A stretch of 64,000 nt of DNA, taken from IMG/VR virus record IMGVR_UViG_3300045988_162015. One strand, 5' to 3'. Below, in pieces: positions 18,670 through 56,028 of the stretch (position 1 is its first letter; every line of letters begins with the position of its first letter). Made by a program: the position numbers and the translations under genes. The stretch comes from a virus. A model generated the notes under the pieces. That model was not told where the DNA came from, did no database searches, and saw only the letters and a program-made list of their open reading frames with translations.

Positions 18670-20019
18670 ATGGATATTAATCACTGTGGTTATATTGTAA
18701 AAGTTAAAGAGCTGCGGAAGCACCCTAATGCAGACAAGCTCTACATCGCAACTTTCTTCGGCAATGACACTTGCGTTTCCATTGATACGCAGGTTGGCGA
18801 TATTGGTGTCTACTTCCCCTGCGACCTCCAGCTTTCCCTCGAATTTTGCATCGCCAATCATCTGTGCCGCAAGCTTCCTGATGGGACTGCTGACACTGGT
18901 TATATGGAAGTAGATAAGCGTAATATCACCGCTATTAGACTGCGTGGCGAACGTTCTGATGGTCTGTATCTACCGATTAGCTGTTTCAATTATTGCTATG
19001 ACGATGATGCAAGTGCTTATCTAAAGGTGGGTGACATTATCAATGAAGTTAATGGTCATCCTATCTGCAATAAGTATATTCCGCGTACTCGTAAGCAGAA
19101 TAATACTAATAACTCTAATGTAAGCAAGACTCGCAAGCATAAAGATCCGATTGCTCCTCTGTTCAAGGAACATATTGATACTGCCCAGCTTGCTTATAAT
19201 CTCAGTGCATTTAATCCTGGTGACCTTATTGAAATCACTCGTAAGCTCCATGGCACTTCTGCACGAATCGGCTATCTGCCTGTTCTTAAGGGTTATAAGC
19301 GTACTCTGTGGGATAAGATTACTCGTAAAGATGGCAAACCTATCTATCAGTATGATTACATTGACGGCACTCGCCGTACTCTGCTGACTGGCTATGATGG
19401 CGGCTTCTATGGTTCTAATGAATTCCGTAAGCATTTCCATGAAGCAATCGAAGGTAAGCTGCATGAGGGCGAAACCTGTTATGCAGAAATCGTAGGTTTT
19501 ACTGACGATGGCACGCCGATTATGGGTTCTGTCTCTAATAAGAAGACCAATGATAAGGCATTTATTAAGCAGTATGGTGATATGACTACCTTCTCTTATG
19601 GCTGCGACCCTACTGGTGTTACTGCTCCGAAGAATGATTTTTATGTTTATCGTATGACTCTAACTACTCATGATGGTTATACTGTGGAATATTCTCCTGA
19701 ATATACTCGGTATCGTTGTGAGCAGATGGGCGTGAAATTCGTTCCTGTTGAATGGCGTGGCTATATCCCCGAGCATCCGGCATCTGAAAATGATGATACT
19801 ATCACCGCAGGCGAATGGATTATGAACAAGGCAGAACAGTATTATGATGGTCCTGAGCCGATTGATCCGCGACATGTGCGTGAAGGTGTTGTTGTGCGTC
19901 TGGTTGATAAGCCTTCATTTACTGCTTATAAAATTAAAAATTTTTCATTCAAACTAATCTCCGGCATTGCGGTTGCTGATACTACTCCAGTAGATGAAAC
20001 AATCGCGGAGGAACTGTAA
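18670..20019 (+). CDS. tRNA-binding-domain (Myf/CsaA-like OB fold) fused to an Rnl2-family RNA ligase
   Basis: N-terminus IVKVKELRKHPNADKLYIATF...DIGVYFPCDL...RLRGERSDGLYL is tRNA-binding-domain-like. Ligase motif I is KLHGTS, motif IV is EGVVVR and motif V is YKIKN. Confidence 0.65.
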   Translation: MDINHCGYIVKVKELRKHPNADKLYIATFFGNDTCVSIDTQVGDIGVYFPCDLQLSLEFCIANHLCRKLPDGTADTGYMEVDKRNITAIRLRGERSDGLYLPISCFNYCYDDDASAYLKVGDIINEVNGHPICNKYIPRTRKQNNTNNSNVSKTRKHKDPIAPLFKEHIDTAQLAYNLSAFNPGDLIEITRKLHGTSARIGYLPVLKGYKRTLWDKITRKDGKPIYQYDYIDGTRRTLLTGYDGGFYGSNEFRKHFHEAIEGKLHEGETCYAEIVGFTDDGTPIMGSVSNKKTNDKAFIKQYGDMTTFSYGCDPTGVTAPKNDFYVYRMTLTTHDGYTVEYSPEYTRYRCEQMGVKFVPVEWRGYIPEHPASENDDTITAGEWIMNKAEQYYDGPEPIDPRHVREGVVVRLVDKPSFTAYKIKNFSFKLISGIAVADTTPVDETIAEEL

Positions 20020-28952: not shown

Positions 28953-29365
28953 GCAAGGTAATGTCTGGTCCAGGCAATCCTTTTGTATTTAATCAGATGG
29001 ATTTTTTAATGGGTCGTATTAAGAAAGAAGACACATTAAATAAATACCATATGCTTCTTAAATCAGGCAAAGTTATTCTTGAAGACTATTGGTGTTGGCA
29101 TGGTCATGAATGGTATAAAGCATTAGTTAAATGTCTTAATGATTTTTATATTGTAATTATATCAGAAATAGATGTAATTAGTATAGAAAGAATAGAAAAT
29201 CCAACAGTAGATTCTATCTATATGGAATATATATTGGCGAGCAGAATGAGAGGAGATGAAGTTGATGGCGACTCTATATATGATGTGCGGCTTGAGTGCA
29301 AATGGAAAGACTACATTCGCGAAATCCTTCGCAAAGATGAATCACATCCGATATGTAAATCCTGA
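28937..29365 (+). CDS. hypothetical protein (142 aa)
   Basis: Overlapping start. Confidence 0.4.
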   Translation: MEFDMSKVMSGPGNPFVFNQMDFLMGRIKKEDTLNKYHMLLKSGKVILEDYWCWHGHEWYKALVKCLNDFYIVIISEIDVISIERIENPTVDSIYMEYILASRMRGDEVDGDSIYDVRLECKWKDYIREILRKDESHPICKS

Positions 29366-34123: not shown

Positions 34124-34149
34124 TTTAAATTCTTGCCAAAATTGAATAC

Positions 34150-34195
34150 TCGAAAATTTATAAAAAATTTGATATAATATATATAGAAAGGATGG
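34150..34195. promoter_or_regulatory. phage promoter motif
   Basis: ATTTATAAAAAATTTGATATAATATATATAGAAAGGATGGGAG. Confidence 0.4.
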
Positions 34196-43581: not shown

Positions 43582-44580
43582 ATGGGTAAAAAAGTTTTAG
43601 TTCCTGAGTTTACTGAAAATTGTAGAGGGCTTTTGGAAGGGCTATTCAAGATTAGTGAAGTAGGTCTTTTGAAAGCTCTTGGTGATTTTGTATCTAATAA
43701 ATATTCTAATGTAGAGATTACAGAAGATTATGTATATGCTGAAGGCAATATTCCTGTAATGCTTATCGCACACGTAGATACTGTATTTAGACAGCCAATT
43801 CGTCAATTTACTTATAATGAAAAAAGAGCTGTTTATAAAGGCAAGGAAGGTCTTGGAGCAGACGATAGAGCAGGTGTTTTTGCGATTATTCAGATTTTAC
43901 GCAAAAAGTATAGACCTTATGTTCTTTTTACAACAGATGAAGAAATGGGTGGCTATGGGGCACATATATTTGTTGAAGAGCATCCAGTAGCTCCAAATAT
44001 TAAGTACATGATTGAGCTTGATAGAGCTGGGGAAAGAGATTGTGTCTTCTATGAGTGTGAAAATTTTACATTCATGGATTATGTTGAAAGTTTTGGATTT
44101 AAGCAAGCAATTGGATCATTTACAGATATTAGTATTATTATGCCTGAATGGGAAATTGCCGGAGTAAATTTATCAGTTGGCTATCATCATGAACATACTC
44201 AAAATGAAGATTTGCATATTAGAACATTGTATAATACAATTAATAAAGTATGTAAAATGCTTGATGATATCGAAAATGCAGATAAATATAAGTTTATTCC
44301 CAGCAAGGAATATCTTCAGTGGATTACATTAACTAATAAATATCATATGCCTTATGATTTTGATGATGATAAACTTCTTAATTGTAGTTTTTGTAATCAG
44401 TTGTATTATGAGTGGGAAGATTTTCCTCTTGATATTGATGGAGTAAAGGTCCATGTATGTCCTGAATGCTTGGCTCTTGACCCTAATATTCATCAATGTG
44501 AAAAATGTTATAATTTATTTTATTCAAATAATATGAAAGAAAGAGTATGTAATAAATGTCGAGTCCCTGTTGTAATTTAA
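43582..44580 (+). CDS. Zn-dependent peptidase (M20/M28/M42-like) with a C-terminal zinc ribbon
   Basis: IAHVDTV, GADDRAG, EEMGGYG and HHEHT fit the metal-ligand pattern of co-catalytic Zn peptidases. The C-terminus carries CxxC...CxxC. Confidence 0.5.
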   Translation: MGKKVLVPEFTENCRGLLEGLFKISEVGLLKALGDFVSNKYSNVEITEDYVYAEGNIPVMLIAHVDTVFRQPIRQFTYNEKRAVYKGKEGLGADDRAGVFAIIQILRKKYRPYVLFTTDEEMGGYGAHIFVEEHPVAPNIKYMIELDRAGERDCVFYECENFTFMDYVESFGFKQAIGSFTDISIIMPEWEIAGVNLSVGYHHEHTQNEDLHIRTLYNTINKVCKMLDDIENADKYKFIPSKEYLQWITLTNKYHMPYDFDDDKLLNCSFCNQLYYEWEDFPLDIDGVKVHVCPECLALDPNIHQCEKCYNLFYSNNMKERVCNKCRVPVVI

Positions 44581-44660
44581 ATGAACTTAAAGAACAAGTA
44601 AAGAAGGTTATTGCCTATTCATAGGGGCTGGACATTAACCTTTTAAATATTGATAAATTA

Positions 44661-45983
44661 ATGAATGATTGGGAAGAGAATAAATGCAAATTTTATAGTA
44701 GGCTTCCTGGTAATAAATTAATTTATCAAAGTCATACACCTATTACAATGTCTATTTCAGAAGATGATAAAAAAGCTGAATTAGATTGTTTTATTGACAA
44801 CATTCGTTGGCGTTATGGCTTATTTGAATTAAGAGATTTTGTTGAAAATAATAGAAAAAATTTTTATAATAATATTTTAAGCGAAGATTATTCAATGAAT
44901 AATGGAACTATCATTCCAAAAGGAATGAAAATAATTAAAGCATTTAAATATTTTGTAGAAGATAAGGAAATTCTTACTGAAATACAAGATAAGGCTAGTA
45001 TGCTTATTCAAAACACAAAAATTAGTGGATATTTTTGTATGTCAGTTCATCCATTGGATTATCTTAGTTTAAGTGAAAATACACATAACTGGCGGTCATG
45101 CCATGCACTTGATGGAGAATACCGTGCTGGTAATTTATCTTATATGGCAGATAATTGTACAATTATATGCTATATTAAGAGTGAACATAATGCGGTTTTA
45201 CCTAGATTCCCAGATGATGTACCATGGGCAGATAAGAAGTGGCGTATGCTTCTTCATGTATCTGATGATGATACTATGGTTATTTCAGGCCGGCATTATC
45301 CTTATGAAAGTAAAGGATTGCAAGATTTTGCTCTTGAATTATATGAAACATTTTTCGGGCAAGGATACCGTTTTACTGATTGGTGTCATGAAAAATATAA
45401 TACATTTACAATAAATGATAAAATCTTTTCTAATGATAGCCGTTTATTGCCTACTGGATATGTAATGACTCCAGATATTAAGGTTATTGTTGACCCAAAA
45501 AATCCTTTACATTATAATGACCCTCTTCATTCTACTGTATATGACTATTGGTTTAGTATTGCTTATAGTGAACCTTATTGGCATGAAGAAGGTATTCCGC
45601 AAGATAAATTAATTCTTCCAAGAACTCGTACCACTACTAAAGTTAATATAGGACATGATGTAAAATGCTGTATTTGTGGTAAAAATGATTGTGTTTTAAC
45701 AGATACGATGCTTTGTATTGATTGTGAACTTAAATATGGTACAGAAGAAACAGAAGATTTTACTTTCTGCAGAGGATGCGGTAGACGTATTTATATTCCT
45801 GAAGCAATATCATTAGATGATGATGATGGTTATGTATGCCGCAGTTGCGGAGACAATTATTAGATATGTGATAATTGTAATATGTATTATGATAAAAAAG
45901 ATTTAATTTATGATGAAGAAAACAATGCTTACTACTGTGAAGCTTGTTATGATGAAATTTTATTTGATAGGGAGAATGAATAA
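44661..45983 (+). CDS. large Cys-rich protein, family member C (HPLDYLSLSEN...WRSCHAL plus zinc ribbons), with an in-frame TAG at 45861
   Basis: The frame continues past the TAG into 41 more codons of CxxC ribbons (ICDNCNMYY...CEACYDE), which matches the C-termini of paralogs A and B. Confidence 0.5.
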
Positions 45984-46398: not shown

Positions 46399-46680
46399 AT
46401 GAAGAAGATTATAATTCCTCAAGAAGAAGTAAATTATCTTTAGAAATTAAATTATGAAATTGAAGCTAGAAAAAATTTATGTCAATTTTTAATTAGACAA
46501 AATATTAGAAATAAAGCTTTTGATGATTATCATAATGAGTATATAGAATTATTTGCTGAATATGAATTAGCTAAATTAGAATTAGAAAATAATTATATTA
46601 AACCAGTAATTGGAAATCAAACTTGTAATTGGAATTTAGATTTTTAGACAAACGAGGTAAATATTGATGTTATTTCCTAA
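46399..46680 (+). CDS. small protein upstream of the radical SAM gene (93 aa; 2 in-frame TAG); possible peptide-recognition partner
   Basis: AAGAAAGGAATAAAAATATG RBS. Overlaps the radical SAM start by 14 nt. The function is a guess. Confidence 0.35.
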
Positions 46681-48007
46681 GATAATTAATATTCCTGAAG
46701 AATTTTCTGATTTTATAAGTCGTTTATATTCTAATGATTGCTTAAATTCTTAGGCTGTATTTACATTAACTTTTTAGGTTACAGATGATTGTTGTCTAAA
46801 TTGTGTTTATTGTTATCAAGGACATAAAGGAAAACATAAATTATCCTTTAATACAGCTAAATAGATGATTGATTAGATACTAACAAGAGACAATAAAGTT
46901 ATTAATTATATTGATTCTTATAAAATACCAGGAGTAGTAATAGAATTTATAGGTGGAGAGCCATTTTTAGAAATTGAATTAATTGATTAGATTACTGATT
47001 ATTTTATTAATAAAATGATTGAATTGCGGCATCCTTGGGCCACTAAATATAAAATTTCAATTAGTTCTAATGGTATTTTATATTTTGAACCAAAAGTACA
47101 AGAGTATATTAAAAAAAATAATGAAAATTTAAGTTTATCAATTTCTATTGATGGAAATAAAAAATTACATGATGCTTGTAGAGTTTTCCCTGATGGTAGT
47201 GGTAGTTATGATAAAGCATTGTCTGCTGCATTACATTATAGCCATAATTATAATAAATGGATTGGGAGTAAAATGACTATCTCTCCATTTAATATAGATT
47301 ATTTATATGACGCTGTTTTAGAAATGATAAACAATGGTTATAATCAAATCAATCTAAATTGTGTGTATGAAAAAGGTTGGGAACTTAACCATGCCACTAC
47401 ATTATATTATTAGTTAAAAAAAATTGCTGATTATTTATTAAATAATGATTTGTGGGATAAAGTTTATTTATCTATTTTTTATATTAATGATGGAAGTAAA
47501 AATTTATCTAATGATAATTGGTGCGGCGGGAATGGTCGTATGTTAGCCTTAAATTGGAAAGGTAAATATTATCCCTGTTTACGTTATATGGAAGATAGCA
47601 TAAGTAATCAGCCAGAATATTATATTGGAGATATTTATTAGGGAATAGGCCAAGATAATTTAACCATCAATAGATTAAAAGATTTATCTGAAATAACAGT
47701 TATTAGTCAATCTCCTCAAGAATGTTTAGATTGTGAAATTTCTGGAGGATGCTCTTGGTGTACAGCTTATAATTATCAAGAAACAGGTAATGTTAATAAA
47801 AGAGTTACTTATATTTGTGATATGCATTATGCTACAGTTCTAGCTTCTTTATATTATTTAAATTCTATTTTAAAAAAAATAAACTCGAATAAACGATTTA
47901 AATTTAATGGAGATATGGAAAAAGCATTAAAAATTATCTCTTAGGATGAATATAATATAATAAAGGAGGCAATGACAAATGAAAATAGGAACGACAATAA
48001 CTTCTGA
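46667..48007 (+). CDS. radical SAM/SPASM-domain peptide-maturase-like enzyme (446 aa; 9 in-frame TAG)
   Basis: Cx3Cx2C motif DDCCLNCVYCYQG. GGEPFL glycine-rich motif. SISSNG and SISIDG motifs. C-terminal SPASM cysteines CGGNG...YYPC and CLDCEISGGCSWC. Confidence 0.75.
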
Positions 48008-48747: not shown

Positions 48748-49317
48748 ATGGATATTTAGATTTTATCTGTTTATGAATATTTATGTCAAAAATATATTTT
48801 ACATAAGGATATATTAAAACAATATAAAGGTATAGAATTATATAAAATTATGGAAATTCAAGATAAAATTTTTATTAATAGATATAAATTATTATTGTAG
48901 ATTATTAATAATAATTATAATTTTGATAATTAGTTAATATACACTGATTTTAATAATTTTAATTTTGAACAAAATATTAGTTATATAAATTATTGTTTAA
49001 AATTACTATTTAATAATTTTAAAAAAATAGATAAACAATTTTGGAAAATTTTAGATTAGATTTATTTTTTAATTAATGGTAAAACTAATTTATTTTTATT
49101 GTTGGGAAATTTTTATTTGAATAAAAGTAATTTATAGCAATTTACTGAAGAAATAAAAAAAATTCCTGGAATTAAAGAATAGCTCTCTTTTAGTTATACA
49201 GCTTTAAATTTAGCTATTGAAATTGATAAAGTTGCAGAAAATAAAAATTATCTTAATGAATTAATTGAAATTATTGATAATCATTCACAAGAAAAAATTT
49301 ATAAATTTGATATTTAA
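48748..49317 (+). CDS. AT-rich hypothetical protein (189 aa; 7 in-frame TAG)
   Basis: Open only if TAG is sense. Lies downstream of the precursor. Low-complexity Asn/Ile/Lys-rich sequence. Confidence 0.35.
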
Positions 49318-49360
49318 TAAAAATTAATATATAATATATATACAAAATAAAGAAAATAAA

Positions 49361-49480
49361 GACTTTAACAGCAAAGAAATGGACAGTAAATCCGTCGCAA
49401 ATGCTACGCAGGTTCGAATCCTGCCCTCCCCACCATTATATGGCGGAGGTAGGGAAGCGGTTAAACCCAATGGGACCAAA
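49361..49480 (+). pseudogene. tRNA-like fragments: a 3' half (T-arm GGTTCGAATCC plus CCA) followed by a 5'-half-like D-arm
   Basis: GCAGGTTCGAATCCTGCCCTCCCCACCA, then GGCGGAGGTAGGGAAGCGGTTAAACCC. The acceptor halves do not pair. Confidence 0.35.
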
Positions 49481-49504
49481 CCAAATAAGTCTTGTTTGAA
49501 TAAA

Positions 49505-49555
49505 ATAATTATTTGATTTTTAATAAAAAATATTATATAATATTTATATAGAAAA
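49505..49555. promoter_or_regulatory. phage promoter motif, variant B
   Basis: TTAATAAAAAATATTATATAATATTTATATAGAAAAGG. Confidence 0.4.
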
Positions 49556-49687
49556 GGCTTTTACAGCAATTTAAACTTCTTTCCGTGGTCGAATAACTGG
49601 ATAATTCATTAGAATTAATTCTGAAAATAAGGATTCGAATTCCTTCCTTGGAGCAAAGTATAAAAAGTCTTGGGTAAATTTCTTAAT

Positions 49688-49740
49688 TTGAAAAAATTAA
49701 AAAAATATAATATAATATATAAGTAATCAATAAGAAATCA
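49688..49740. promoter_or_regulatory. phage promoter motif, variant B
   Basis: AAAAAATTAAAAAAATATAATATAATATATAAG. Confidence 0.4.
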
Positions 49741-49747
49741 AATAAAT

Positions 49748-49822
49748 GGGGTCGTGGCCAAGCGGTAAGGCCGACAACTTATAATTGTCAAATCGTTGGT
49801 TCGAACCCAACCGGCCCCACCA
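49748..49822 (+). tRNA. tRNA-Ile (anticodon UAU)
   Basis: Cloverleaf GGGGTCG/CGGCCCC. Anticodon loop CTTATAA. T-loop TTCGAAC. Encoded CCA. Confidence 0.7.
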
Positions 49823-49848
49823 TATTCCAATAGAAAGGAATTAAAATA

Positions 49849-50088
49849 ATGAAGTTGACAAATATTAAGCAGGTTGAAGATTTTATCGCAGCAGTTAATC
49901 GGGCACATAGTAATGTATGGCTGGTAAGTCCGCAGGGTGATAGATATAATATGAAATCTGCACTTTCACAGTATATTGCACTTGGTGCATTGCTCGGCCA
50001 GCATGGCGATGAATTGGAACTTTTCTGTGATAGTAAGCAGGATGAAGGCTTGTTTATTGAATTTTTTGTTCGTCACCCTGAAGTTTAA
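49849..50088 (+). CDS. hypothetical protein (79 aa)
   Basis: AGAAAGGAATTAAAATAATG RBS. Confidence 0.5.
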   Translation: MKLTNIKQVEDFIAAVNRAHSNVWLVSPQGDRYNMKSALSQYIALGALLGQHGDELELFCDSKQDEGLFIEFFVRHPEV

Positions 50089-50115
50089 TAAAAACATTAG
50101 AGAGGGAGGGGAAGA

Positions 50116-51075
50116 ATGACTGTTATTGAATTGTTCGCAGGAATTGGAACATAGATTTCAGCCTTGAGCGAGATTGATCCAAATATTAGATCAATTGGTA
50201 TTAGTGAAATTGATGAACGACCATTGAAAGCGTATAAAGTTTTGAATGGTGAATATAATAATTTTGGTGATATCACAAAAATTGATACTTTGCCCTACGC
50301 AGATATTTGGACTTATTCTTTCCCTTGTACTGATTTATCTATTGCAGGGAAGCAAGAAGGTTTTCAAGGAAAAAATTCTTCATTAATTTATGAGGTATAC
50401 CGTCTCTTGCTTTCTTCTCCAAAGCCAAAAATTCTTTTAATGGAAAATGTGGCCAATATTTGTAATAATACTTTTATGCCAAAATTTCAAGAGTGGATTA
50501 ATAGTTTAGCTGAATTAGGTTATGTATCTAGTTGGAAGAAAATAAAAGCTTATGAATATGGCGGAGCAACTATTAGAGATCGTGTATTCATGATTTCAGT
50601 AATTTCTCCTTTAAAAAAGTTTATTTTCCCTTTAGCTGAAAATGTTAAAACTACTTTAAAAGATTTTTTGGAGCCAATTAACGAAGAATATTTCATTGAT
50701 AGTTATGATGGCCCAAGTGATATTACTACACCATATTATAATGGAGCTAAAAAACTCTGTGATTATAAAAATGGTGGTCAAGGAAATCGAATTTATTCTA
50801 TATTTGGACAAGGAGTTACATTAACTGCTTCTGGTGGAGGAAAAGCCGGATCAAGTGGTGGTTTGTATCTTCGTAATAATAGTATTTATAAACTTACTCC
50901 AATTGAGATTTGTAAAGTAATGGGTTGGACTAAAGTAGAAGCAGAAAAGATTTGTTCTGTTTTAACCCCTAGAGAAGTGGGTTTTTGCTTGGGCAATGCC
51001 ATTGATAGAAATGTGTTAATTCATATTTTTAAAGGGATAAAGGAACAATACTATGATGAATTGGGAGAAAAGTGA
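50116..51075 (+). CDS. DNA (cytosine-5)-methyltransferase, with an in-frame TAG at 50152
   Basis: Motif I ELFAGIGT. Motif IV FPCTDLSIAG (PC motif). Motif VI ENV. GGGGAAGAATG RBS. Confidence 0.7.
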
Positions 51076-51679
51076 AAAGAAAGCATTTGAATGGTTTAAA
51101 AATAACTATGATAATGATGCGGTTTACCAAGGACATAATAATTCTACTATTTCAGATATTTATTCTCCTTTATATAATTGCTATATTGAAGTAAAAGATA
51201 TTACTAATGGTGCTCGATGCGGGCAATTTACTAAAAGTACCATCAGTAATAACCCATATGCTGAAGCTATTTATTTGGGTAAAAATGATGAAGAAACTTG
51301 TATAAATTTTGTAAAAGAGCATTATAGAGCTAAACGAGTAGGGGCTTTTATTATTATTAATAATAATAATATTTCTCTTGTGGCTTTTGATGATTTTTTT
51401 AATAATTATACTTTTGAAATTCAAAAGCCTTATTGCAAAAGAAGCGGCACTTCATCGGCTCCAATTAAAGATAAAGAAACTCTTTTAAAATTTAATACAG
51501 GATTTTATCAAGAAAATAATAAAGTTTTTTGTTCTGATCAAAATTTATTTGGTACTTATTGTTCAGTATTTAATCCTTTTGATTATTTTATCAGTAAAAC
51601 AACTGGTGAATTAAGAAAAAGAAGTAATACTAATAATATGACTTGGCATATTGTAATTAAAGAAAAATTGAAAAATTAA
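51053..51679 (+). CDS. putative PD-(D/E)xK nuclease partner of the methyltransferase (possible Type II restriction endonuclease)
   Basis: Overlaps the methyltransferase 3' end. SDIY...CYIEVKD is a possible D...ExK motif. Weak. Confidence 0.3.
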   Translation: MMNWEKSEKKAFEWFKNNYDNDAVYQGHNNSTISDIYSPLYNCYIEVKDITNGARCGQFTKSTISNNPYAEAIYLGKNDEETCINFVKEHYRAKRVGAFIIINNNNISLVAFDDFFNNYTFEIQKPYCKRSGTSSAPIKDKETLLKFNTGFYQENNKVFCSDQNLFGTYCSVFNPFDYFISKTTGELRKRSNTNNMTWHIVIKEKLKN

Positions 51680-51715
51680 AAAAAATATTATAAAATATAT
51701 ATACAAAATAAATGA
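51662..51715. promoter_or_regulatory. phage middle/late promoter motif
   Basis: AAAAATTAAAAAAAATATTATAAAATATATATACAAAATAAATGAG. Confidence 0.4.
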
Positions 51716-51735
51716 GAAATAAATTCTCATTTGTA

Positions 51736-51812
51736 TGGGACAGTAGCTTACGAGGTCGGAGCATTGGTCTGAAAAACCAAAGGATGGAGGCTCGATACCT
51801 CCCTGTCCCACC
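51736..51812 (+). tRNA. tRNA-Phe (anticodon GAA)
   Basis: Acceptor GGGACAG/CTGTCCC. Anticodon loop CTGAAAA. Atypical T-loop CTCGATA. Encoded CCA. Confidence 0.6.
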
Positions 51813-51895
51813 AATTGGTCTTACACATGGGGTTTCCGATTTGAACTAGGCAGATTAGTCACCTGCCGTTGGCAATAGACCAATTAAAAATAAAC
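51813..51895 (+). ncRNA. structured hairpin element (9 bp outer stem AATTGGTCT/AGACCAATT enclosing an inner GGCAG/CTGCC stem-loop)
   Basis: Nested inverted repeats lying between two tRNAs. Function unknown. Confidence 0.3.
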
Positions 51896-52031
51896 TGAGG
51901 CAAAGGGAAATCGGGTAGTTATGATGAACTTCATAATGAAATCCTCTTGTAATCAAGCTAATTGGGAGAGAGGTAGCACGGGAACGGGGAGAAGCGTGCT
52001 ATAAAAGGTGAAATACTTCTTTCCACCATAT

Positions 52032-52107
52032 GCCGGTGTAGCCGAATGGCATAGGCGAATGATTTAGGATCATTAATCTGAAGGTTCGAATCCTTTCACC
52101 GGTACCA
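52032..52107 (+). tRNA. tRNA with anticodon UAG (Leu-decoding) but a type I body (5-nt variable loop)
   Basis: Acceptor GCCGGTG/CACCGGT. Anticodon stem AATGA/TCATT with loop TTTAGGA. Variable loop AATCT. Encoded CCA. Confidence 0.6.
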
Positions 52108-52176
52108 TAAGCCGATATCTTTGTACTATCCGGTGGTTGGTGGCTCCATCGTTATGTAAATAAGCCATATATATAT

Positions 52177-52247
52177 TACTTCTTGGTGTAATGGAAGCAC
52201 GCTGCCTGAAGGGGGCGGAGGTATTGGTTCAATTCCAATAGAAGGAT
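52177..52247 (+). tRNA. tRNA-like gene, anticodon unresolved (loop TGAAGGG with G33); possibly a pseudogene
   Basis: D-arm GTG-TAATGGAAG-CAC. T-arm ATTGG-TTCAATT-CCAAT. The acceptor pairs 6 of 7. Confidence 0.35.
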
Positions 52248-52597
52248 TAATTAAAGCTGGGAAATAATAGTCGCCCATAACTAATTATTTAATATAGGAC
52301 TATTATTAAAGATTATTTAAGTTAAAGAAATGCGGTTGAAGTTATTACTTACTTGATCATAAAATAATATAACCGCAAGACGAGTGTTTGAAGCTTGTCT
52401 ATAAACAAATTCTTCATATGTTGTCTTTTTATACTTACTCTTTGGCTGTTTCTTGACATATAAGTAAAGGCGAAAAGGGAGTTAAAGGTTTAACTAAAAA
52501 ACCAGTTTGTTTTTTGATAAGATTTTAAAGGTTAGGTGGCAAAATCTTATTTGAGTGACGCTGCTCAGGAGGGTCCGGAACCTCTAAAATGCGATAT

Positions 52598-52730
52598 GCG
52601 CCAGTGGCCAAGTGGTATGGCACCTGCCTTTGTGGGATTGATGTAAGTAGCATTTTAATGTATTGGTTCAAATCCAATATTCCGCACCATAAGCAGGGCA
52701 ACGCGGGTTCGATCCCCGCCTGGCGCACCA
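52598..52730 (+). tRNA. tRNA interrupted in the anticodon loop by a 58-nt insertion (52632-52689) that itself resembles an anticodon-arm-less mini-tRNA
   Basis: Outer tRNA: acceptor GCGCCAG/CTGGCGC, D-arm GCC-AAGTGGTAT-GGC, and anticodon stem halves CCTGC(52623)...GCAGG(52693) separated by the insert. The T-arm is GCGGG-TTCGATC-CCCGC with an encoded CCA. Insert: acceptor GTGGGAT/ATTCCGC, D-arm ATG-TAAGTAG-CAT, T-arm ATTGG-TTCAAAT-CCAAT, then ACCA. Confidence 0.45.
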
Positions 52731-53064
52731 GGTCAAGTTTGAGAAATTTCATAGAGCATTGCTGACGTTAAATGGTTCTTATATGAAAGCGCGTAATTAG
52801 TATAAGAAACAAAATTCTCGTAGTTCATCCCATTAGAGAATCTTAAAGAGTAATGGCAAGGTCATATCGCGGGAGACCGTGCGTATGAGATACCTAAATA
52901 AAGGTAGCACATTCTGTGTTGAGCAGAATACTAGTGGAAATCAAGCGGGTCCACCTTACTGGGCCTACTGTAATAGCCAGTTTAATATGCCCTCCATACC
53001 CAATGAGGAATTTTTATAAAAGTCTATTTAATTTTTCTTGGCAGTTTAGTTAAATAGACTATAT

Positions 53065-53141
53065 GCGGGATTAGCTCAGCTGGTTAGAGCGTTTGGTTTA
53101 CACCCAAGAGGTCATTGGTTCGAATCCAATATCCTGCACCA
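53065..53141 (+). tRNA. tRNA-Val (anticodon UAC)
   Basis: GCGGGAT/ATCCTGC. D-arm TAGCTCAGCTGGTTAGAGC. Anticodon loop TTTACAC. Encoded CCA. Confidence 0.7.
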
Positions 53142-53142
53142 A

Positions 53143-53200
53143 TAAATTTGAAAATTTAAAAAAAATATTATATAATATTTATATAATAATAAAGGAGATA
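53143..53200. promoter_or_regulatory. phage promoter motif, variant B
   Basis: AAAAAAATATTATATAATATTTATATAATAATAAAGGAG. Confidence 0.4.
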
Positions 53201-53206
53201 TTTGAA

Positions 53207-53374
53207 ATGGCAACTACTAAGAAACCTGCTATCAAGATGGATAATGAAGAGTTGAATGAGTATCTTCTGTTTCGCCGTCGTAGATCAATTGTCCCTGCCA
53301 AGAAAGGTAAGGGTATGGAATATGATAGAGCGAAGGAAAAAGAAAAATCTGAAAAAATGATTTCTGATGAATAA
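53207..53374 (+). CDS. small basic protein (55 aa)
   Basis: AAAGGAGATATTTGAAATG RBS. Confidence 0.4.
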   Translation: MATTKKPAIKMDNEELNEYLLFRRRRSIVPAKKGKGMEYDRAKEKEKSEKMISDE

Positions 53375-53441
53375 ATATGCTCCCATCGACAAGTGGTCTA
53401 AGTCACCAGCCTTTCACGCTGGAGTCGCCGGTTCAAATCCG
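53369..53441 (+). tRNA. tRNA-Glu (anticodon UUC)
   Basis: GCTCCCA/TGGGAGT. Anticodon loop CTTTCAC. T-arm GCCGG-TTCAAAT-CCGGC. No encoded CCA. Confidence 0.6.
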
Positions 53442-53535
53442 GCTGGGAGTAGAGATACAAATTCTACAACCTTCACGCGGTGTATCTTGTTTTAACTAAT
53501 GTAGAATAAAGTAAATAAAAAGGAGCTGTTTAATT

Positions 53536-54159
53536 ATGGCATACATTTATTAGATTATTAATGATATAAATTAGAAAATTTATGTTGGTAAAACTGAATT
53601 TTCTATTGAAAAACGTTTTAAAGAACATTGTAAAGATGCTTTTAGAGAGCGCAATGAAAAACGTCCATTATATTCAGCAATGCGAAAATATGGAGTAGAA
53701 CATTTTCATATTGAACTAATTGAAGAAACTGATGATGCTAATAATCGAGAAACTTATTGGATTGAAAAATTAGGTTCTTTTAAATGGGGATATAATGCTA
53801 CAATAGGCGGAGATGGTAAAAAGTATCTTGATTATGATTTAATTATTGCTTCTTATCAAGAAATTAAAAATATTGAAGAAACTGCTCGTAAATTAGGAAT
53901 TTCTTCTGATAGTGTAGAAAGAATTCTTAAAGAAAAAAAAGAAAAAATTTATTCTCAACAAGAAGTTAATTTAGTTAAATCAGGTAAAAAAGTTGCTCAA
54001 TGTGATAAAAAAACTGGAAAAATTTTAAATATATTTCCATCTATTGGAAGTGCAGGTAGAGCTATTAATAAACCTGATATTACTCATATAAGCGCTGTAT
54101 GCTTAGGTAAAAGACAAAGTGCTTATGGTTATAAATGGAAATTTATTGAAAATAATTAA
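53536..54159 (+). CDS. GIY-YIG homing endonuclease (I-TevI-like), with 2 in-frame TAG codons
   Basis: MAYIY[TAG]IINDIN[TAG]KIYVGKT aligns with I-TevI GIYQIKNTLNNKVYVGS, placing the first TAG at the I-TevI Gln. A C-terminal helix-turn-helix-like region follows. Confidence 0.7.
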
Positions 54160-54183
54160 AATTATTCTTATATGGTGCTATAG

Positions 54184-54260
54184 TTCAGTTGGCTAGAATG
54201 TCGGACTGTCTCTCCGAAGGTCAGGGGTTCGAGTCCCCTTAGCATCGCCACCGCACTCGC
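54184..54260 (+). tRNA. tRNA-Asp (anticodon GUC)
   Basis: GGTGCTA/TAGCATC. Anticodon loop CTGTCTC. T-arm AGGGG-TTCGAGT-CCCCT. Encoded CCA. Confidence 0.7.
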
Positions 54261-54352
54261 GGGATGATACTACAAATGCACAACAGATAATTAAAATTGG
54301 CAGCATAGAACTTGATAGAGCGTTCTATTAATCTGATTAAATTAAGTTTTAT
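54261..54352 (+). repeat. post-tRNA repeat element, copy 1 (CCGCACTCGCGG hairpin ... GCATAGAACTTGATAGAGCGTTCTATTAATCTGAT ... ATTAAGTTTTATAAC)
   Basis: A near-identical unit follows tRNA-Asn at 54570. It contains a small GC hairpin directly 3' of the CCA and an ATAGAAC/GTTCTAT hairpin. Confidence 0.55.
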
Positions 54353-54355
54353 AAC

Positions 54356-54431
54356 TATCGAATATGGGGCTTTAGCTCAACTGGGAGAGCGCCTGTCTTG
54401 CACACAGGAGGTAGCGAGTTCGACCCTCGCA
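54356..54431 (+). tRNA. tRNA-Ala (anticodon UGC)
   Basis: GGGGCTT/AAGTTCC. Anticodon loop CTTGCAC. T-arm GCGAG-TTCGACC-CTCGC. Encoded CCA. Confidence 0.65.
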
Positions 54432-54493
54432 AGTTCCACCATTAAGTGTGATATATTCCAAACACGTAGGGTGGTAAGCACACGGGTTTTCTA

Positions 54494-54569
54494 GAAGCCT
54501 TCCCTATGAATATGGATGCATAGCTCAGTTGGTAGAGCAATTGACTGTTAATCAATGGGTCGGAGGATC
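54494..54569 (+). tRNA. tRNA-Asn (anticodon GUU)
   Basis: GGATGCA/TGCATCC. D-arm TAGCTCAGTTGGTAGAGC. Anticodon loop CTGTTAA. Encoded CCA. Confidence 0.7.
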
Positions 54570-54690
54570 ATACCCTTCTGCATCCGCCACCGCACTCGCG
54601 GAAAACATACAACTCAACTGGTGCATAGAACTTGATGGAGCGTTCTATTAGTCTGATGCCTGCATTAGATTAAGTTTTATAACCATTATA
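54570..54690 (+). repeat. post-tRNA repeat element, copy 2
   Basis: CCGCACTCGCGGAAAACATACAACTCAACTGGTGCATAGAACTTGATGGAGCGTTCTATTAGTCTGAT...ATTAGATTAAGTTTTATAACC. Confidence 0.55.
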
Positions 54691-54719
54691 TTTATAAAAG
54701 ACAATTTCAGCAATTATAA

Positions 54720-54825
54720 ATTTGCTTGGGGAGCCGTAGGTTATAGGTTCAAGTCCTATTGTTCGGCAGAATGCCGGATATGGCGTAATTGGTAGCGCGA
54801 CGTATAAAAATTGTCTTGTTAATAT
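54720..54825 (+). pseudogene. tRNA fragments (a 3'-half-like T-arm ATAGG-TTCAAGT-CCTAT followed by a 5'-half-like GCCGGATATGGCGTAATTGGTAGCGC)
   Basis: The halves are in 3' then 5' order and their acceptor strands do not pair. Degenerate. Confidence 0.3.
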
Positions 54826-54898
54826 TGCGGGGTCGTCAAGTGGTTAAGACACAAGCCTCATAAACTTGTTATCGTGGGTTCGAATCCTACCCCCGCAA
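54826..54898 (+). tRNA. tRNA-Met (anticodon CAU)
   Basis: TGCGGGG/CCCCGCA pairs 7 of 7, with U8. Anticodon loop CTCATAA with a 31-39 C-A mismatch. T-arm GTGGG-TTCGAAT-CCTAC. Confidence 0.6.
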
Positions 54899-55099
54899 GA
54901 GATACATTAATCAAACCTCCACGTGGTGTATCTTGGGTAACGCTAATTGATTAAATGAGTATAATTAATAATGTTTTATGAAAAGCCCACACAGCAATTT
55001 TTAATAGGTTAAATAAGAAATTCTGCAAAAATTTTTTAGAGTTGGTTCAAATCCAGCAAATGATTTTAGGGCTTTGTTAAAATTGTTAAGGAGAAAATA

Positions 55100-55285
55100 A
55101 TGAAGTTTAATCCAGGAGATAAGGTCTGGTGTAAGAGGTACGGTAAGGGTAAGTGCCGTAAGGCTGATAATAAGGATAATTTTATGACTTATCTTTTCAG
55201 ATTTTATGATGGCACTTTGATTTGGATGCCGAAACGTCAGGCTGAACATTTTGTAAAAGTTCGTTCCACCGAGGCCACGGTGTGA
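55100..55285 (+). CDS. small basic protein (61 aa)
   Basis: AAGGAGAAAATAATG RBS. Lies within the tRNA island. Confidence 0.4.
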   Translation: MKFNPGDKVWCKRYGKGKCRKADNKDNFMTYLFRFYDGTLIWMPKRQAEHFVKVRSTEATV

Positions 55286-55444
55286 ATATAAAGTCCGGTT
55301 ATAGGAAATCCTGTCATTAGGCGGCAGGCTACCGGTAATCCTTTCTTATATATTTAAATATGTAAGGAACAAAAACTATACAATAGATAGAGTTTTTACG
55401 CCTTGGCGCGATGCTTGTTTTTTACTATCTATTTTTCTATATTC

Positions 55445-55531
55445 GGAGTCGTGGGATAATGGTATTCCAATGGATTGCTAATCCATCCTACCTCTTGGGT
55501 AGTCCGCGTTCGAGTCGCGGCGATTCCGCCA
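55445..55531 (+). tRNA. tRNA-Ser (anticodon GCU), type II
   Basis: GGAGTCG/CGATTCC. Anticodon loop TTGCTAA. 17-nt variable arm. T-arm CCGCG-TTCGAGT-CGCGG. Encoded CCA. Confidence 0.7.
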
Positions 55532-55537
55532 TTATAT

Positions 55538-55625
55538 GTAGGAGTGCCAGAGTGGTCGATTGGGTTAGTCTCCAAAACTAATTGTAGCTGCACATCCAGG
55601 GTTCGAATCCCTTGCTCCTATGCCA
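55538..55625 (+). tRNA. type II (long variable arm) tRNA with anticodon CCA
   Basis: Acceptor GTAGGAG/CTCCTAT, U8, D-arm CCAG-AGTGGTCGA-TTGG. Anticodon stem TTAGT/ACTAA with loop CTCCAAA. About 15-nt variable arm. T-loop TTCGAAT. Encoded CCA. Confidence 0.5.
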
Positions 55626-55896
55626 TACGTATTAAGACTCATTTTCAGCAAACTTTTGCCTGTAAAGGCTCTACAATACTTATTTATTACTAATAGATGA
55701 AAAAGTATAATAAAGAAAATAAAGTATATTTTGAAAAGTTTTTTCTTTTTAGCTGATTTAGTAAGCTAAATTCCGCGTTTTTATTTTGGCTTTTCAATGA
55801 GTCTTGTTTATTAAAATAATTGGTATCGCTAAGCTTCATAGTAATTGTGGCGTATTTAAATCATAGATAGCTAAGGGTCTATAGCCAATTATGATA

Positions 55897-55985
55897 TGCG
55901 GAATTAACTTGCCCGGCGGTAAGCCTTGTCTTGAAAACAAGTGGTCCTGTGATAGGGATGGGGATCGACACCTCAGTTCCGCGCC
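55897..55985 (+). tRNA. tRNA-Ser-like (anticodon UGA), type II, with an irregular D-arm
   Basis: GCGGAAT/GTTCCGC. Anticodon stem CTTGT/ACAAG with loop CTTGAAA. 17-nt variable arm. T-arm TGGGG-ATCGACA-CCTCA. Encoded CCA. Confidence 0.45.
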
Positions 55986-56028
55986 ACTCGTTTCAGATTC
56001 GTTCATTGCATTTCATCCTTTCTATAAA

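What the first reader, a model, noticed from the sequence alone, without database searches (positions are those of the whole stretch)
49300..56000. No CUA-anticodon suppressor tRNA was found in the 14-gene tRNA island
Recoding normally relies on a phage-encoded tRNA-Sup(CUA). I parsed every tRNA here by hand and none has a CUA anticodon. The anticodons found are UAU, GAA, UAG, UAC, UUC, GUC, UGC, GUU, CAU, GCU, CCA and UGA. The only ambiguous candidate is the interrupted tRNA at 52598, where alternative splice junctions could give UUU, UUG (Gln) or other anticodons. The suppressor may lie outside the window. It may instead derive from an unusual gene in the island.
Basis: seen in the sequence. 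Interest (0 to 1): 0.55.

Follow-up and report, generated by a model that had tools for sequence, protein, structure and literature searches.

The report
Suppressor tRNA lies outside this island
This gut-phage tRNA cluster really has no amber-suppressor tRNA, most likely because the lineage keeps it in a second tRNA cluster about 20 kb past the window; the "interrupted" tRNA is a lysine tRNA with a small tRNA-shaped insert in its anticodon loop.

Summary
ARAGORN (default, intron and pseudogene modes), the Rfam tRNA model and my own hairpin scan find no CUA-anticodon tRNA in 49.3-56 kb or anywhere else in the 64-kb window. TAG is read through here: a C5 methylase, a GIY-YIG nuclease and a radical-SAM protein align to their families across in-frame TAGs.

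The source genome itself could not be recovered. In all five 90-96% identical relatives whose downstream region I obtained, a tRNA(CUA) sits in a second tRNA island. That island lies 29-35 kb downstream of tRNA-Phe, which is 17-23 kb beyond the window end. The suppressor occurs as three different alleles, two of them next to GIY-YIG homing-endonuclease genes. One allele is non-canonical and ARAGORN misses it.

The ambiguous gene at 52598 cannot yield CUA. It is tRNA-Lys(UUU) carrying a 58-nt insert. The insert is itself tRNA-like: acceptor stem, T arm and ACCA, ending exactly at the exon junction. At least 12 similar nested elements occur in related phages, and the long ones carry HNH genes. 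They may be a new, enzyme-processed kind of mobile tRNA intron, but this is untested.

The island also holds two theta (HDV-like) ribozymes and five members of an undescribed stem motif.

The parts
49359..49494 (+). Element a. Outer stem AAGACTT/AAGTCTT plus the CAGCAA motif, enclosing a circularly permuted tRNA-like module in this order: stem-loop, T arm, acceptor 3' strand, ACCA, 6-nt linker, acceptor 5' strand, D arm.
   Evidence: Fold z = -2.35. T stem covaries in L069 (GCAGG/CCTGC to GTAGG/CCTAC). Motif family statistics.
49554..49672 (+). Element b. Outer stem AAGGCTTTT/AAAAGTCTT plus CAGCAA, with a T-arm-like hairpin inside.
   Evidence: ARAGORN -ps90 gives a weak tRNA-like call at 49582-49654. 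The fold is not significant.
49748..49822 (+). tRNA-Ile(UAU)
   Evidence: ARAGORN; Rfam 63.3 bits.
51737..51813 (+). tRNA-Phe(GAA)
52032..52107 (+). tRNA-Leu(UAG)
52177..52247 (+). Atypical tRNA-like gene. ARAGORN calls it Leu(AAG). Position 33 is G, and the apparent anticodon changes to AAA in close relatives.
   Evidence: Rfam 38.7 bits; alignment.
52598..52631 (+). tRNA-Lys(UUU), 5' exon (positions 1-35, ending CCUGC-CUUU).
   Evidence: Pairs 7/7 with the 3' end at 52723-52729 (sequence). Homologous to the intact tRNA-Lys in L040.
52632..52689 (+). 58-nt nested tRNA-like insert in the anticodon loop: acceptor GTGGGAT/ATTCCGC, a small hairpin, T arm ATTGG-TTCAAAT-CCAAT, A73 and CCA. It ends exactly at the exon junction.
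   Evidence: Identical in L034 and L151, and one mismatch in L002, while the flanks are about 90% identical.
52690..52730 (+). tRNA-Lys(UUU), 3' exon (UAA-GCAGG ... CTGGCGC-A-CCA).
53065..53141 (+). tRNA-Val(UAC)
   Evidence: 70.7 bits.
53378..53451 (+). tRNA-Glu(UUC), no encoded CCA.
53452..53507 (+). Theta (minimal HDV-like) ribozyme abutting tRNA-Glu. P1 GAGATAC/GTATCTT, P2 ATTCTACA/TGTAGAAT, P3 ACC/GGT, L3 TTCACGC.
   Evidence: Weak Rfam HDV-F-prausnitzii hit, 19.4 bits. P1 and P2 covary among five copies. Context matches PMC10879173.
54174..54250 (+). tRNA-Asp(GUC)
54366..54441 (+). tRNA-Ala(UGC)
54514..54589 (+). tRNA-Asn(GUU)
54698..54818 (+). Element c. Outer stem AAGACAATTT/AAATTGTCTT plus CAGCAA, enclosing a YrlA-like permuted tRNA-like module (T arm, closed acceptor hairpin, D arm).
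   Evidence: Fold z = -2.95. Rfam YrlA 20.1 bits, below the gathering score of 69. T stem and acceptor hairpin covary in relatives.
54825..54898 (+). tRNA-Met(CAU), no encoded CCA.
54899..54954 (+). Theta (minimal HDV-like) ribozyme abutting tRNA-Met. P2 is TTAATCAA/TTGATTAA.
   Evidence: Rfam HDV-F-prausnitzii 24.9 bits, gathering score 44.
54982..55076 (+). Element d. Outer stem AAAGCCC/GGGCTTT plus CAGCAA, enclosing a degenerate tRNA-like module. ARAGORN calls the homologue Cys(GCA) in relatives.
55445..55531 (+). tRNA-Ser(GCU)
55538..55625 (+). 88-nt tRNA with anticodon CCA, a long variable arm and G73. It scores better against the tRNA-Sec model than against the general tRNA model.
   Evidence: Rfam tRNA 33.8 bits; tRNA-Sec 38.8 bits, gathering score 47. 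Conserved in relatives.
55634..55806 (+). Element e. Outer stem AAGACTCATT/AATGAGTCTT plus CAGCAA. No tRNA-like module seen.
55898..55986 (+). tRNA-Ser(UGA) with a non-canonical T loop (ATCGACA). Missed by ARAGORN and Rfam.
   Evidence: Hand parse. Acceptor and anticodon stems covary in L092 and L054.
50116..51075 (+). C5 DNA methyltransferase gene with an in-frame TAG at codon 13 (evidence of recoding).
   Evidence: Pfam PF00145, 1.1e-40, residues 1-309.
53536..54159 (+). GIY-YIG homing-endonuclease-like gene inside the island, with two in-frame TAGs.
   Evidence: Pfam PF01541, 1.7e-11, residues 1-87. In the alignment to I-TevI the first TAG aligns with Gln.
46667..48007 (+). Radical-SAM/SPASM-like gene with 8 in-frame TAGs.
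   Evidence: Alignment to PDB 5wgg spans residues 25-387.
18670..20019 (+). RNA ligase gene. With 29256-29801 (AAA_33 kinase), 36420-37226 (RlaP) and 37424-38248 (metallophosphatase) it forms an RNA-repair gene set.
   Evidence: Pfam PF09414, PF13671, PF10127, PF00149.

Best explanation
The 49.3-56 kb island is one of two tRNA islands of a TAG-recoded gut phage with a genome of about 140 kb. TAG is probably read as Gln. This island encodes only sense-codon tRNAs: Ile, Phe, Leu, Lys (interrupted), Val, Glu, Asp, Ala, Asn, Met, two Ser, and one with a CCA anticodon. It also holds tRNA-like small RNAs and two theta ribozymes.

The amber suppressor tRNA(CUA) of this lineage is encoded in a second island. 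That island runs Thr-Pro-Gln-Tyr-ROOL RNA-Sup(CUA)-Leu(UAA)-Gly and lies about 29-35 kb downstream of tRNA-Phe, which is about 17-23 kb beyond the end of the window. So the absence of a suppressor here is an effect of where the window ends, not an unusual decoding mechanism.

What is shown: no CUA tRNA in the window; TAG read-through; tRNA(CUA) genes at the syntenic site in relatives. What is inferred: that this particular genome carries the same second island, and that TAG is read as Gln.
For: - No CUA tRNA in the window by four approaches.
- TAG read-through is seen in three conserved proteins. TAG-rich ORFs cluster at 46.6-49.3 kb and 56-64 kb.
- The relatives are 90-96% identical to the window across the island.
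- The second island with tRNA(CUA) was found in L123 at 9608-9682, L125 at 9610-9684 (ARAGORN; Rfam 49.2 bits) and L276 at 1215-1289.
- L124, from contig 166471, has a non-canonical allele at 9610-9681 with the arm CCGGT-CTCTAAA-ACCGG (Rfam tRNA 38.9 bits).
- L153 has a third allele, GGGGA-TTCTAAA-TCCCT.
- That makes 5 of 5 close relatives in which this region was recovered.
- Distances come from contig coordinates.
- All suppressor alleles share G73 and an unpaired or weak 1:72 pair with the phages' own tRNA-Gln(UUG).
- Where the window and relatives differ at a TAG, the other codon is CAA or CAG in 4 of 8 cases. The first TAG of the GIY-YIG gene aligns with Gln of I-TevI.
- Code-15 phages with phage-encoded tRNA-Sup(CUA), theta ribozymes after CCA-less tRNAs, and a DRB0094-type RNA ligase are a described syndrome (PMC10879173; bioRxiv 10.1101/2021.08.26.457843 and PMC9523058).
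Against: - The source genome was not found. No IMG/VR contig is identical, and the only exact protein match is a 2.6-kb Logan contig. The second island is therefore inferred, not seen.
- Three different probes did not retrieve the second island of contig 164317, which shares the interrupted Lys allele with the window.
- Three more distant contigs carry the same HNH/Leu-intron marker but have no CUA hairpin within +/-10 kb (L126, L127, L131).
- The suppressor site is a hot spot of cassette replacement, so loss in a given genome is conceivable.
- The amino acid inserted at TAG is not firmly established here.
Confidence: 0.8

Rival explanations
1. The suppressor is made from an unusual gene in this island, for example by alternative splicing of the interrupted tRNA at 52598 or by processing of the permuted tRNA-like elements.
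For: The island does contain an interrupted tRNA, permuted tRNA-like genes and an RNA ligase gene, so unconventional tRNA maturation is plausible in this phage.
Against: - The exons of 52598 match intact tRNA-Lys(UUU) alleles.
- Removing the insert at its tRNA-like ends gives the loop CUUUUAA. ARAGORN's alternative junction gives CAU.
- No junction choice can create CUA, because neither the loop residues nor the insert termini contain C-U-A in the right place (sequence).
- The loops of elements a-e read CAGUAAA, UUAUAAAU and so on, never CUA.
Confidence: 0.02
2. This particular phage has no suppressor tRNA of its own. TAG codons would be read by a host or co-infecting-phage suppressor, or by near-cognate read-through helped by interference with release factor.
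For: Some recoded phage genomes lack suppressor tRNA genes, as stated in PMC10607447 citing earlier surveys. Three more distant contigs with the same marker gene lack a nearby CUA tRNA. The second island of contig 164317 was not recovered.
Against: All five close relatives with recovered sequence keep a tRNA(CUA) at the same site, despite repeated allele replacement. That argues for selection to retain it. In-frame TAGs are dense in essential structural genes, with 6-8 per gene.
Confidence: 0.12
3. A highly non-canonical CUA tRNA (armless, split or permuted) is present in the window but escaped every search.
For: The lineage does have non-canonical tRNAs that ARAGORN misses: Ser(UGA) at 55898 and the L124 suppressor with T loop GGCAGCA.
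Against: The L124-type suppressor is still found by Rfam (38.9 bits) and by the simple hairpin scan. The same two searches over the whole window return nothing comparable. The one conserved CUA hairpin, at 54484, lacks any acceptor or T-arm partner.
Confidence: 0.04

Closest known systems
TAG-to-Gln (code 15) recoded gut phages with phage-encoded tRNA-Sup(CUA) (Borges et al., bioRxiv 10.1101/2021.08.26.457843; Peters et al., PMC9523058; phAss-1, PMC10607447)
   Same: In-frame TAG is concentrated in structural and late genes. There are large tRNA arrays. Relatives carry suppressor tRNA(CUA) genes. Genome size is about 140 kb and the source is human gut.
   Different: No nucleotide or protein match to any GenBank phage in the INPHARED copy, so this is not Phassvirus or a described crAss-like phage. 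The suppressor lies in a separate island and exists as three replaceable alleles.
Theta ribozymes: minimal HDV-like ribozymes abutting the 3' end of phage tRNAs (Kienbeck et al. 2024, PMC10879173)
   Same: Two copies start immediately after the discriminator base of tRNAs that lack an encoded CCA. P1, P2 and P3 are supported by covariation. The genome encodes an RNA ligase, as 54.5% of theta-ribozyme phages do.
   Different: Both copies score below the Rfam HDV-F-prausnitzii gathering threshold. Here they follow tRNA-Glu and tRNA-Met, not the suppressor. Cleavage activity was not tested.
Free-standing homing endonucleases in phage tRNA gene clusters (T4 SegB, PMC2330249)
   Same: GIY-YIG and HNH genes lie among the tRNA genes. 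tRNA genes are exchanged as cassettes with breakpoints at the gene borders.
   Different: Several endonuclease genes here sit inside tRNA anticodon loops, or carry an embedded replacement tRNA (L001 at 11558-11642).
Group I introns in bacterial and phage tRNA anticodon loops, and archaeal bulge-helix-bulge introns with homing endonuclease genes
   Same: The insert is in the anticodon loop. Insert-bearing and insert-free alleles both exist. Long versions carry a homing endonuclease ORF.
   Different: The 58-nt insert is far too small for a group I core, and no Rfam intron hit was found. There is no bulge-helix-bulge motif. Instead, the termini form a tRNA acceptor/T minihelix ending in NCCA.
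YrlA bacterial Y RNAs (Chen et al. 2014, PMC4201824)
   Same: Elements a and c have the same permuted order (stem-loop, T arm, closed acceptor stem, D arm) set inside a terminal stem. Element a encodes ACCA next to the acceptor 5' strand. This recalls M. smegmatis YrlA, which is cut by RNase P and receives CCA.
   Different: The GNCGAAN0-1G Ro-binding motif is absent and CAGCAA stands in its place. No TROVE/Ro60 gene was seen among the ORFs tested. The Rfam score of 20 bits is far below the gathering score of 69.

Membership tests
Code-15 (TAG-to-Gln) recoded phage using a phage tRNA-Sup(CUA) | In-frame TAG codons inside conserved protein domains | tested here: met
   Pfam alignments span the TAGs in the methylase and GIY-YIG genes. 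The radical-SAM protein aligns to 5wgg across seven TAGs.
Code-15 (TAG-to-Gln) recoded phage using a phage tRNA-Sup(CUA) | A tRNA gene with anticodon CUA in the genome | not testable with these tools
   Absent from the 64-kb window. Present at a syntenic site in 5 of 5 close relatives. The rest of this genome could not be retrieved.
Code-15 (TAG-to-Gln) recoded phage using a phage tRNA-Sup(CUA) | TAG is decoded as glutamine | tested here: inconclusive
   TAG versus CAA/CAG accounts for 4 of 8 substitutions. One TAG aligns with Gln of I-TevI and another with Asn. The suppressor tRNAs share G73 and a weak 1:72 pair with the phage tRNA-Gln. The alignment to 5wgg is uninformative.
Theta / minimal HDV-like ribozyme | Nested double-pseudoknot helices P1, P2 and P3 with a G-U pair at the cleavage site | tested here: met
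   P1 is 7 bp starting with G-U, and P2 is 7-9 bp. Both covary among five copies. P3 is ACC/GGT.
Theta / minimal HDV-like ribozyme | Cleavage site directly 3' of a tRNA that lacks CCA | tested here: met
   Ribozymes start at 53452 and 54899, right after the discriminator A of tRNA-Glu and tRNA-Met. This matches PMC10879173.
Theta / minimal HDV-like ribozyme | Reaches the Rfam HDV-F-prausnitzii gathering score; self-cleavage activity | tested here: not met
   24.9 and 19.4 bits against a gathering score of 44. Activity cannot be tested here.
YrlA (Y RNA-like) | Permuted tRNA-like domain (T arm, acceptor stem-loop, D arm) inside a terminal stem | tested here: met
   Elements a and c.
YrlA (Y RNA-like) | GNCGAAN0-1G motif near the 5' end, and a neighbouring Ro60/TROVE gene | tested here: not met
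   The motif is absent and CAGCAA stands in its place. No TROVE domain was found among the 15 window ORFs scanned, though not every ORF was scanned. Rfam gives 20.1 bits against a gathering score of 69.
Group I intron in a tRNA anticodon loop | Conserved P1-P9 ribozyme core (at least about 200 nt) and a terminal G | tested here: not met
   The insert is 58 nt and ends in CCA, and there is no Intron_gpI hit at E <= 10. By contrast, inserts of 340-790 nt ending in ...AAG, which I take by size, terminal G and insertion site (not by any ribozyme-core or Rfam test) to be group I introns, occur in tRNA-Leu(UAA), Asp, Pro and Ala of relatives.
Archaeal/eukaryal bulge-helix-bulge tRNA intron | Two 3-nt bulges separated by a 4-bp helix at the splice sites | tested here: not met
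   The predicted structure has the insert's own acceptor stem starting at the junction, with no bulge-helix-bulge (inspection).

The most novel reading that the evidence does not exclude
The 58-nt insert in tRNA-Lys(UUU) (52632-52689) would belong to a previously undescribed class of mobile tRNA intron. Each member is a tRNA-shaped cassette: a 7-bp acceptor stem, a T arm and N73-CCA, with or without an HNH homing-endonuclease ORF. It sits in the anticodon loop of another tRNA, and its DNA boundaries are exactly the mature 5' end and the CCA end of the inner tRNA-like RNA.

The proposed pathway is as follows. RNase P cuts at the inner +1 position. A 3' processing activity cuts after CCA. This leaves tRNA halves with 3'-OH and 5'-phosphate ends, which the phage-encoded RNA ligase reseals. 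That would be protein-catalysed tRNA splicing in a bacterial system.

Supporting observations:
- Twelve nested elements were found, in Lys, Ile, Gln, Asn, Glu and Leu tRNAs. Their acceptor pairing is 100% and their T-stem pairing is 95%, with compensatory changes.
- In every case, removing the element restores a 7-nt loop with U33.
- Insert-bearing and insert-free alleles differ by one base apart from the insert itself (L065 versus L040).
- All three long versions encode HNH proteins.
- Reduced tRNA-like modules occur only inside anticodon loops.
- The insert is more conserved than its flanks.
Probability: 0.3. Interest if true: 0.85.

Novelty: new member of a known kind. Interest (0 to 1): 0.4.

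Why it matters
For the question asked, the result is reassuring rather than surprising. A recoded phage can seem to lack its suppressor simply because the gene lies in another tRNA cluster, or because it is a non-canonical allele that standard tRNA finders miss. This matters for annotation pipelines that assign genetic codes from partial contigs.

The by-products may matter more. The lineage exchanges tRNA genes, including the suppressor, as cassettes driven by homing endonucleases. It also carries tRNA-shaped inserts in anticodon loops. If these inserts are spliced, that would be a new RNase P plus ligase route of tRNA splicing. It would also give a function to the RNA ligase that is strongly enriched in theta-ribozyme phages.

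Tried and rejected
- Megablast of the island and tblastn of a 547-aa window protein against GenBank phages gave no match. No annotated relative could be read.
- Exact-protein look-ups for the source contig returned nothing for the 459-aa product and only a 2.6-kb Logan contig for the 208-aa product.
- I tried four probes to fetch the second island of contig 164317: the HNH protein, a 209-aa protein, the element downstream of the suppressor, and a ROOL fragment. None retrieved it.
- The 14-nt junction pattern CACCATAAGCAGGG was too unspecific. A longer pattern in metagenomes returned only the two insert types already known.
- The CUA hairpin at 54484-54500 was rejected as a suppressor arm.
- YrlA membership was rejected for elements a and c.
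- Group I and bulge-helix-bulge identities were rejected for the 58-nt insert.
- The alignment of the radical-SAM protein to PDB 5wgg did not reveal which amino acid TAG encodes.
- My first regex for the AAGRC stem motif was mis-specified and had to be redone.
- Literature searches for nested or tRNA-like introns in phage tRNAs found nothing relevant.

Full report
**Observation.** ARAGORN finds 12 tRNA genes in the window. All are on the + strand between 49748 and 55625, with anticodons TAT, GAA, TAG, AAG, TAC, TTC, GTC, TGC, GTT, CAT, GCT and CCA. Rfam at gathering threshold gives 12 tRNA hits over the whole 64 kb, adding 52598-52686. A permissive Rfam search of 48.5-57 kb adds no further tRNA. 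ARAGORN run with introns allowed, and with thresholds lowered to 90% and 85%, gives only weak extra calls, none with CUA. My own scan for CTA centred in a 7-nt loop closed by at least 4 bp, on both strands, finds nothing convincing. The best island candidate is at 54484-54500. It is conserved in relatives, but it folds as a 7-bp stem with a CUA triloop in an unstructured 72-nt spacer, with no T arm or acceptor partner. The hand-parsed tRNA-Ser(UGA) at 55898-55986, which both programs miss, is supported by compensatory changes in its acceptor and anticodon stems in L092 and L054.

**Recoding is real.** With TAG read through, ORFs at 46.6-49.3 kb and 56-64 kb carry 2-8 in-frame TAGs each, whereas ORFs at 20-46 kb carry few. 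Pfam DNA_methylase (1.1e-40, residues 1-309) and GIY-YIG (1.7e-11, residues 1-87) alignments run across TAGs. A radical-SAM protein aligns to PDB 5wgg over residues 25-387, across seven TAGs.

The amino acid is probably Gln, but the evidence is modest:
- The first TAG of the GIY-YIG gene aligns with Gln of I-TevI, and the second with Asn.
- Among eight positions where the window and relatives differ by TAG versus a sense codon, four are CAA or CAG.

**Where the suppressor is.** A 208-aa island protein retrieved two IMG/VR contigs of 137 and 145 kb at 98% amino-acid identity. I then scanned IMG/VR for a phage promoter-like motif, AAAAATATTATAWAATATWTATA, which occurs 9 times in the window. This fetched many tRNA islands, including pieces of five phages that are 90-95% identical to the window.

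One of these, contig 164919, has a second tRNA cluster with a CUA tRNA. Using the protein next to that tRNA as a probe gave the syntenic region in several contigs. ARAGORN finds Thr-Pro-Gln-Tyr-Sup(CUA)-Gly in L123 and L125.

In L124, from contig 166471, the canonical suppressor is replaced. The BLAST breakpoints fall exactly at the tRNA borders. The replacement is 916 nt and consists of a TAG-containing GIY-YIG ORF plus a non-canonical tRNA with the arm CCGGT-CTCTAAA-ACCGG, T loop GGCAGCA and a G73-CCA end. ARAGORN misses this tRNA, but Rfam scores it at 38.9 bits, above the gathering score of 29.

A third allele, next to another GIY-YIG gene, is in L153. A fifth relative has the canonical allele (L276).

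From the contig coordinates, the suppressor lies 29.2, 35.5 and 34.1 kb downstream of tRNA-Phe in three of the genomes. That is 17-23 kb past the window end. All suppressor alleles share G73 and a mismatched or weak 1:72 pair with the phages' tRNA-Gln(UUG).

I could not retrieve the source genome itself or the second island of contig 164317. The conclusion for this genome is therefore an inference. I put it at about 0.8.

**The ambiguous gene at 52598.** The 5' strand GCGCCAG does not pair with the first 3' end, ATTCCGC. It pairs 7/7 with CTGGCGC at 52723-52729. The gene is therefore 52598-52730, with a 58-nt insert in the anticodon loop. The exons match intact tRNA-Lys(UUU) genes in relatives. 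ARAGORN's intron mode also predicts a 58-nt intron, but it shifts the boundaries by 2 nt and so calls the anticodon CAU. No choice of junction gives CUA.

The insert is itself tRNA-like: GTGGGAT pairs with ATTCCGC, followed by a T arm, then A73 and CCA, and it ends exactly at the 3' exon. The evidence from relatives is as follows:
- In L001 the same 3' part belongs to a complete tRNA-Val(UAC), which is followed directly by the Lys 3' exon.
- In L065 a different Lys allele is interrupted at the same place by 735 nt. Its termini again form an acceptor stem, T arm and ACCA, and it encodes an HNH protein.
- Splicing L065 in silico at those termini reproduces the intact L040 gene, apart from one base.
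- The interrupted gene is identical in L034 although the flanks are about 90% identical.

ARAGORN's intron mode on all fetched loci shows two classes of interrupted tRNA. The first class has inserts of 340-790 nt ending in ...AAG. I take these to be group I introns from their size, terminal G and insertion site. I did not test them for a ribozyme core, and no Rfam group I hit was obtained. The second class is the nested tRNA-like type.

Twelve nested elements were tabulated, in Lys, Ile, Gln, Asn, Glu and Leu tRNAs. All have 7/7 acceptor pairing. All leave a 7-nt loop with U33 when removed. Their T stems, which were not used to select them, are 95% paired, and both helices show many compensatory changes. 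Reduced tRNA-like modules were found only inside anticodon loops.

The window also encodes an RNA ligase, an RlaP-family nucleotidyltransferase, a kinase and a phosphoesterase.

A coherent but untested reading is excision by RNase P and a 3' processing activity, followed by ligation. The simpler rival is that these are scars of homing-endonuclease traffic, which is clearly intense in these islands. For example, L001's tRNA-Leu(UAG) is disrupted by an HNH ORF that contains an embedded replacement tRNA-Leu.

**Other contents of the island.** Two minimal HDV-like (theta) ribozymes start right after the discriminator of the two tRNAs that lack CCA (53452-53507 and 54899-54954). Rfam scores are sub-threshold, but P1 and P2 covary among five copies. 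The context matches Kienbeck et al., including the enriched RNA ligase.

Five elements, labelled a-e, share an outer stem AAGRC-NNNN / NNNN-GYCTTG with a CAGCAA motif on the 5' side. Across the fetched loci, 72 of 125 distinct 5' motifs have a 7-bp partner, against 25 in a control. G follows the 3' arm in 65 of 72 cases. Elements a and c enclose permuted tRNA-like modules with the YrlA topology, but they lack YrlA's defining motif and score only 20 bits.

**Comparison and verdict.** This is a member of the known kind [quoted passage not shown]. It belongs to a lineage with no counterpart among GenBank phages. The specific finding, that this island has no suppressor, is true, and it is explained by where the window ends. 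It is, however, the most interesting object here and deserves an RNA-level experiment.

Noticed in passing
window 52632-52689; L065 2538-3272; L020 6758-6818 (- strand); L027 756-823 (- strand); L001 about 8594-8742; L108 13658-13733; L129 12737-13482 and 15133-15196; L054 9066-9986: tRNA-shaped inserts sit in the anticodon loops of other tRNAs. Each has an acceptor stem, a T arm and NCCA ending exactly at the exon junction. Short forms are 50-83 nt. Long forms are 670-850 nt and carry an HNH ORF. L108 has a complete tRNA-Lys nested inside tRNA-Gln. These may be a new enzyme-processed mobile intron class.
   Followed up: partly
window 49359-49494, 49554-49672, 54698-54818, 54982-55076, 55634-55806; many loci (e.g. 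L124 9690-9761, L057, L054, L108): A widespread, apparently undescribed stem motif: 5'-AAGRC-NNNN-(A)CAGCAA ... NNNN-GYCTTG-3', 55-280 nt long. The inner stem positions covary. It lies next to tRNAs in phage tRNA islands and sometimes encloses tRNA-like modules. No Rfam family matches it.
   Followed up: partly
L123 9608-9682, L124 8765-9684, L153 2400-3445: The suppressor tRNA site is a cassette-exchange hot spot. Three unrelated tRNA(CUA) alleles occupy the same position, two of them next to TAG-containing GIY-YIG genes. The L124 allele has non-canonical D and T loops and is invisible to ARAGORN.
   Followed up: yes
window 53452-53507 and 54899-54954; L124 about 5472; L132 about 8482 and 11841: Theta (minimal HDV-like) ribozymes lie directly after CCA-less tRNAs. 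P1 and P2 covary between copies.
   Followed up: yes
window 55538-55625: An 88-nt tRNA with anticodon CCA, a long variable arm, G73 and an apparent 13-bp acceptor/T stack. It scores higher on the tRNA-Sec model (38.8 bits) than on the general tRNA model (33.8 bits). It could be a Ser- or Sec-type body reading UGG. It is conserved in relatives.
   Followed up: partly
window 52177-52247: A tRNA-like gene with G at position 33. Its apparent anticodon differs between near-identical relatives (AAG here, AAA in L001, L034 and L040). It is probably not an ordinary decoder.
   Followed up: partly
L001 11025-11932: In a relative, tRNA-Leu(UAG) is disrupted by an insertion of about 900 nt that encodes an HNH endonuclease. 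A complete type-II tRNA-Leu(UAG) (11558-11642) is embedded within that ORF.
   Followed up: partly
window 54251-54365 and 54590-54697: A repeated element follows tRNA-Asp and tRNA-Asn. It has a CCGC-ACTC-GCGG hairpin and then a conserved hairpin, ATAGAAC...GTTCTAT. The second copy folds with z = -2.9. Function unknown.
   Followed up: no
window 17885, 23283, 27755, 30421, 32414, 40379, 49531, 51686, 53166 and others: A strongly conserved promoter-like motif, TTGAAAAA-N-AAAAAATATTATAWAATATWTATA, has 36 loose matches against 1.6 expected. It precedes genes, tRNAs and the small RNAs a and b. The same motif marks tRNA islands in many IMG/VR phages.
   Followed up: partly
L124 7305-7898 and 10621-10733; L123 8122-8715: The second tRNA island of relatives contains a ROOL RNA (320 bits) just upstream of the suppressor, and a RAGATH-33 RNA. 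It also has a tRNA-Leu(UAA) interrupted after U34 by a 736-nt insert ending in ...AAG, which I take to be a group I intron. That insert encodes the 148-aa HNH protein.
   Followed up: partly
window 18670-20019, 29256-29801, 36420-37226, 37424-38248: An RNA-repair-type gene set: RNA ligase PF09414, AAA_33 kinase, RlaP nucleotidyltransferase and a metallophosphoesterase.
   Followed up: partly
window 32459-34177, 40422-42065, 44556-45983: Three paralogous proteins of about 475-570 aa share a SIHPLDY..SDN...WxSCM..YRAGT.EMMNSP motif and C-terminal Cys-rich repeats. They have no Pfam match and no hit in GenBank phages.
   Followed up: no
window 52248-52597 and 52731-53064: Two spacers of about 340 nt without ORFs, between tRNA genes. 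They stay conserved in relatives even where the flanking tRNA genes are swapped. They may be structured RNAs or recombination substrates.
   Followed up: no
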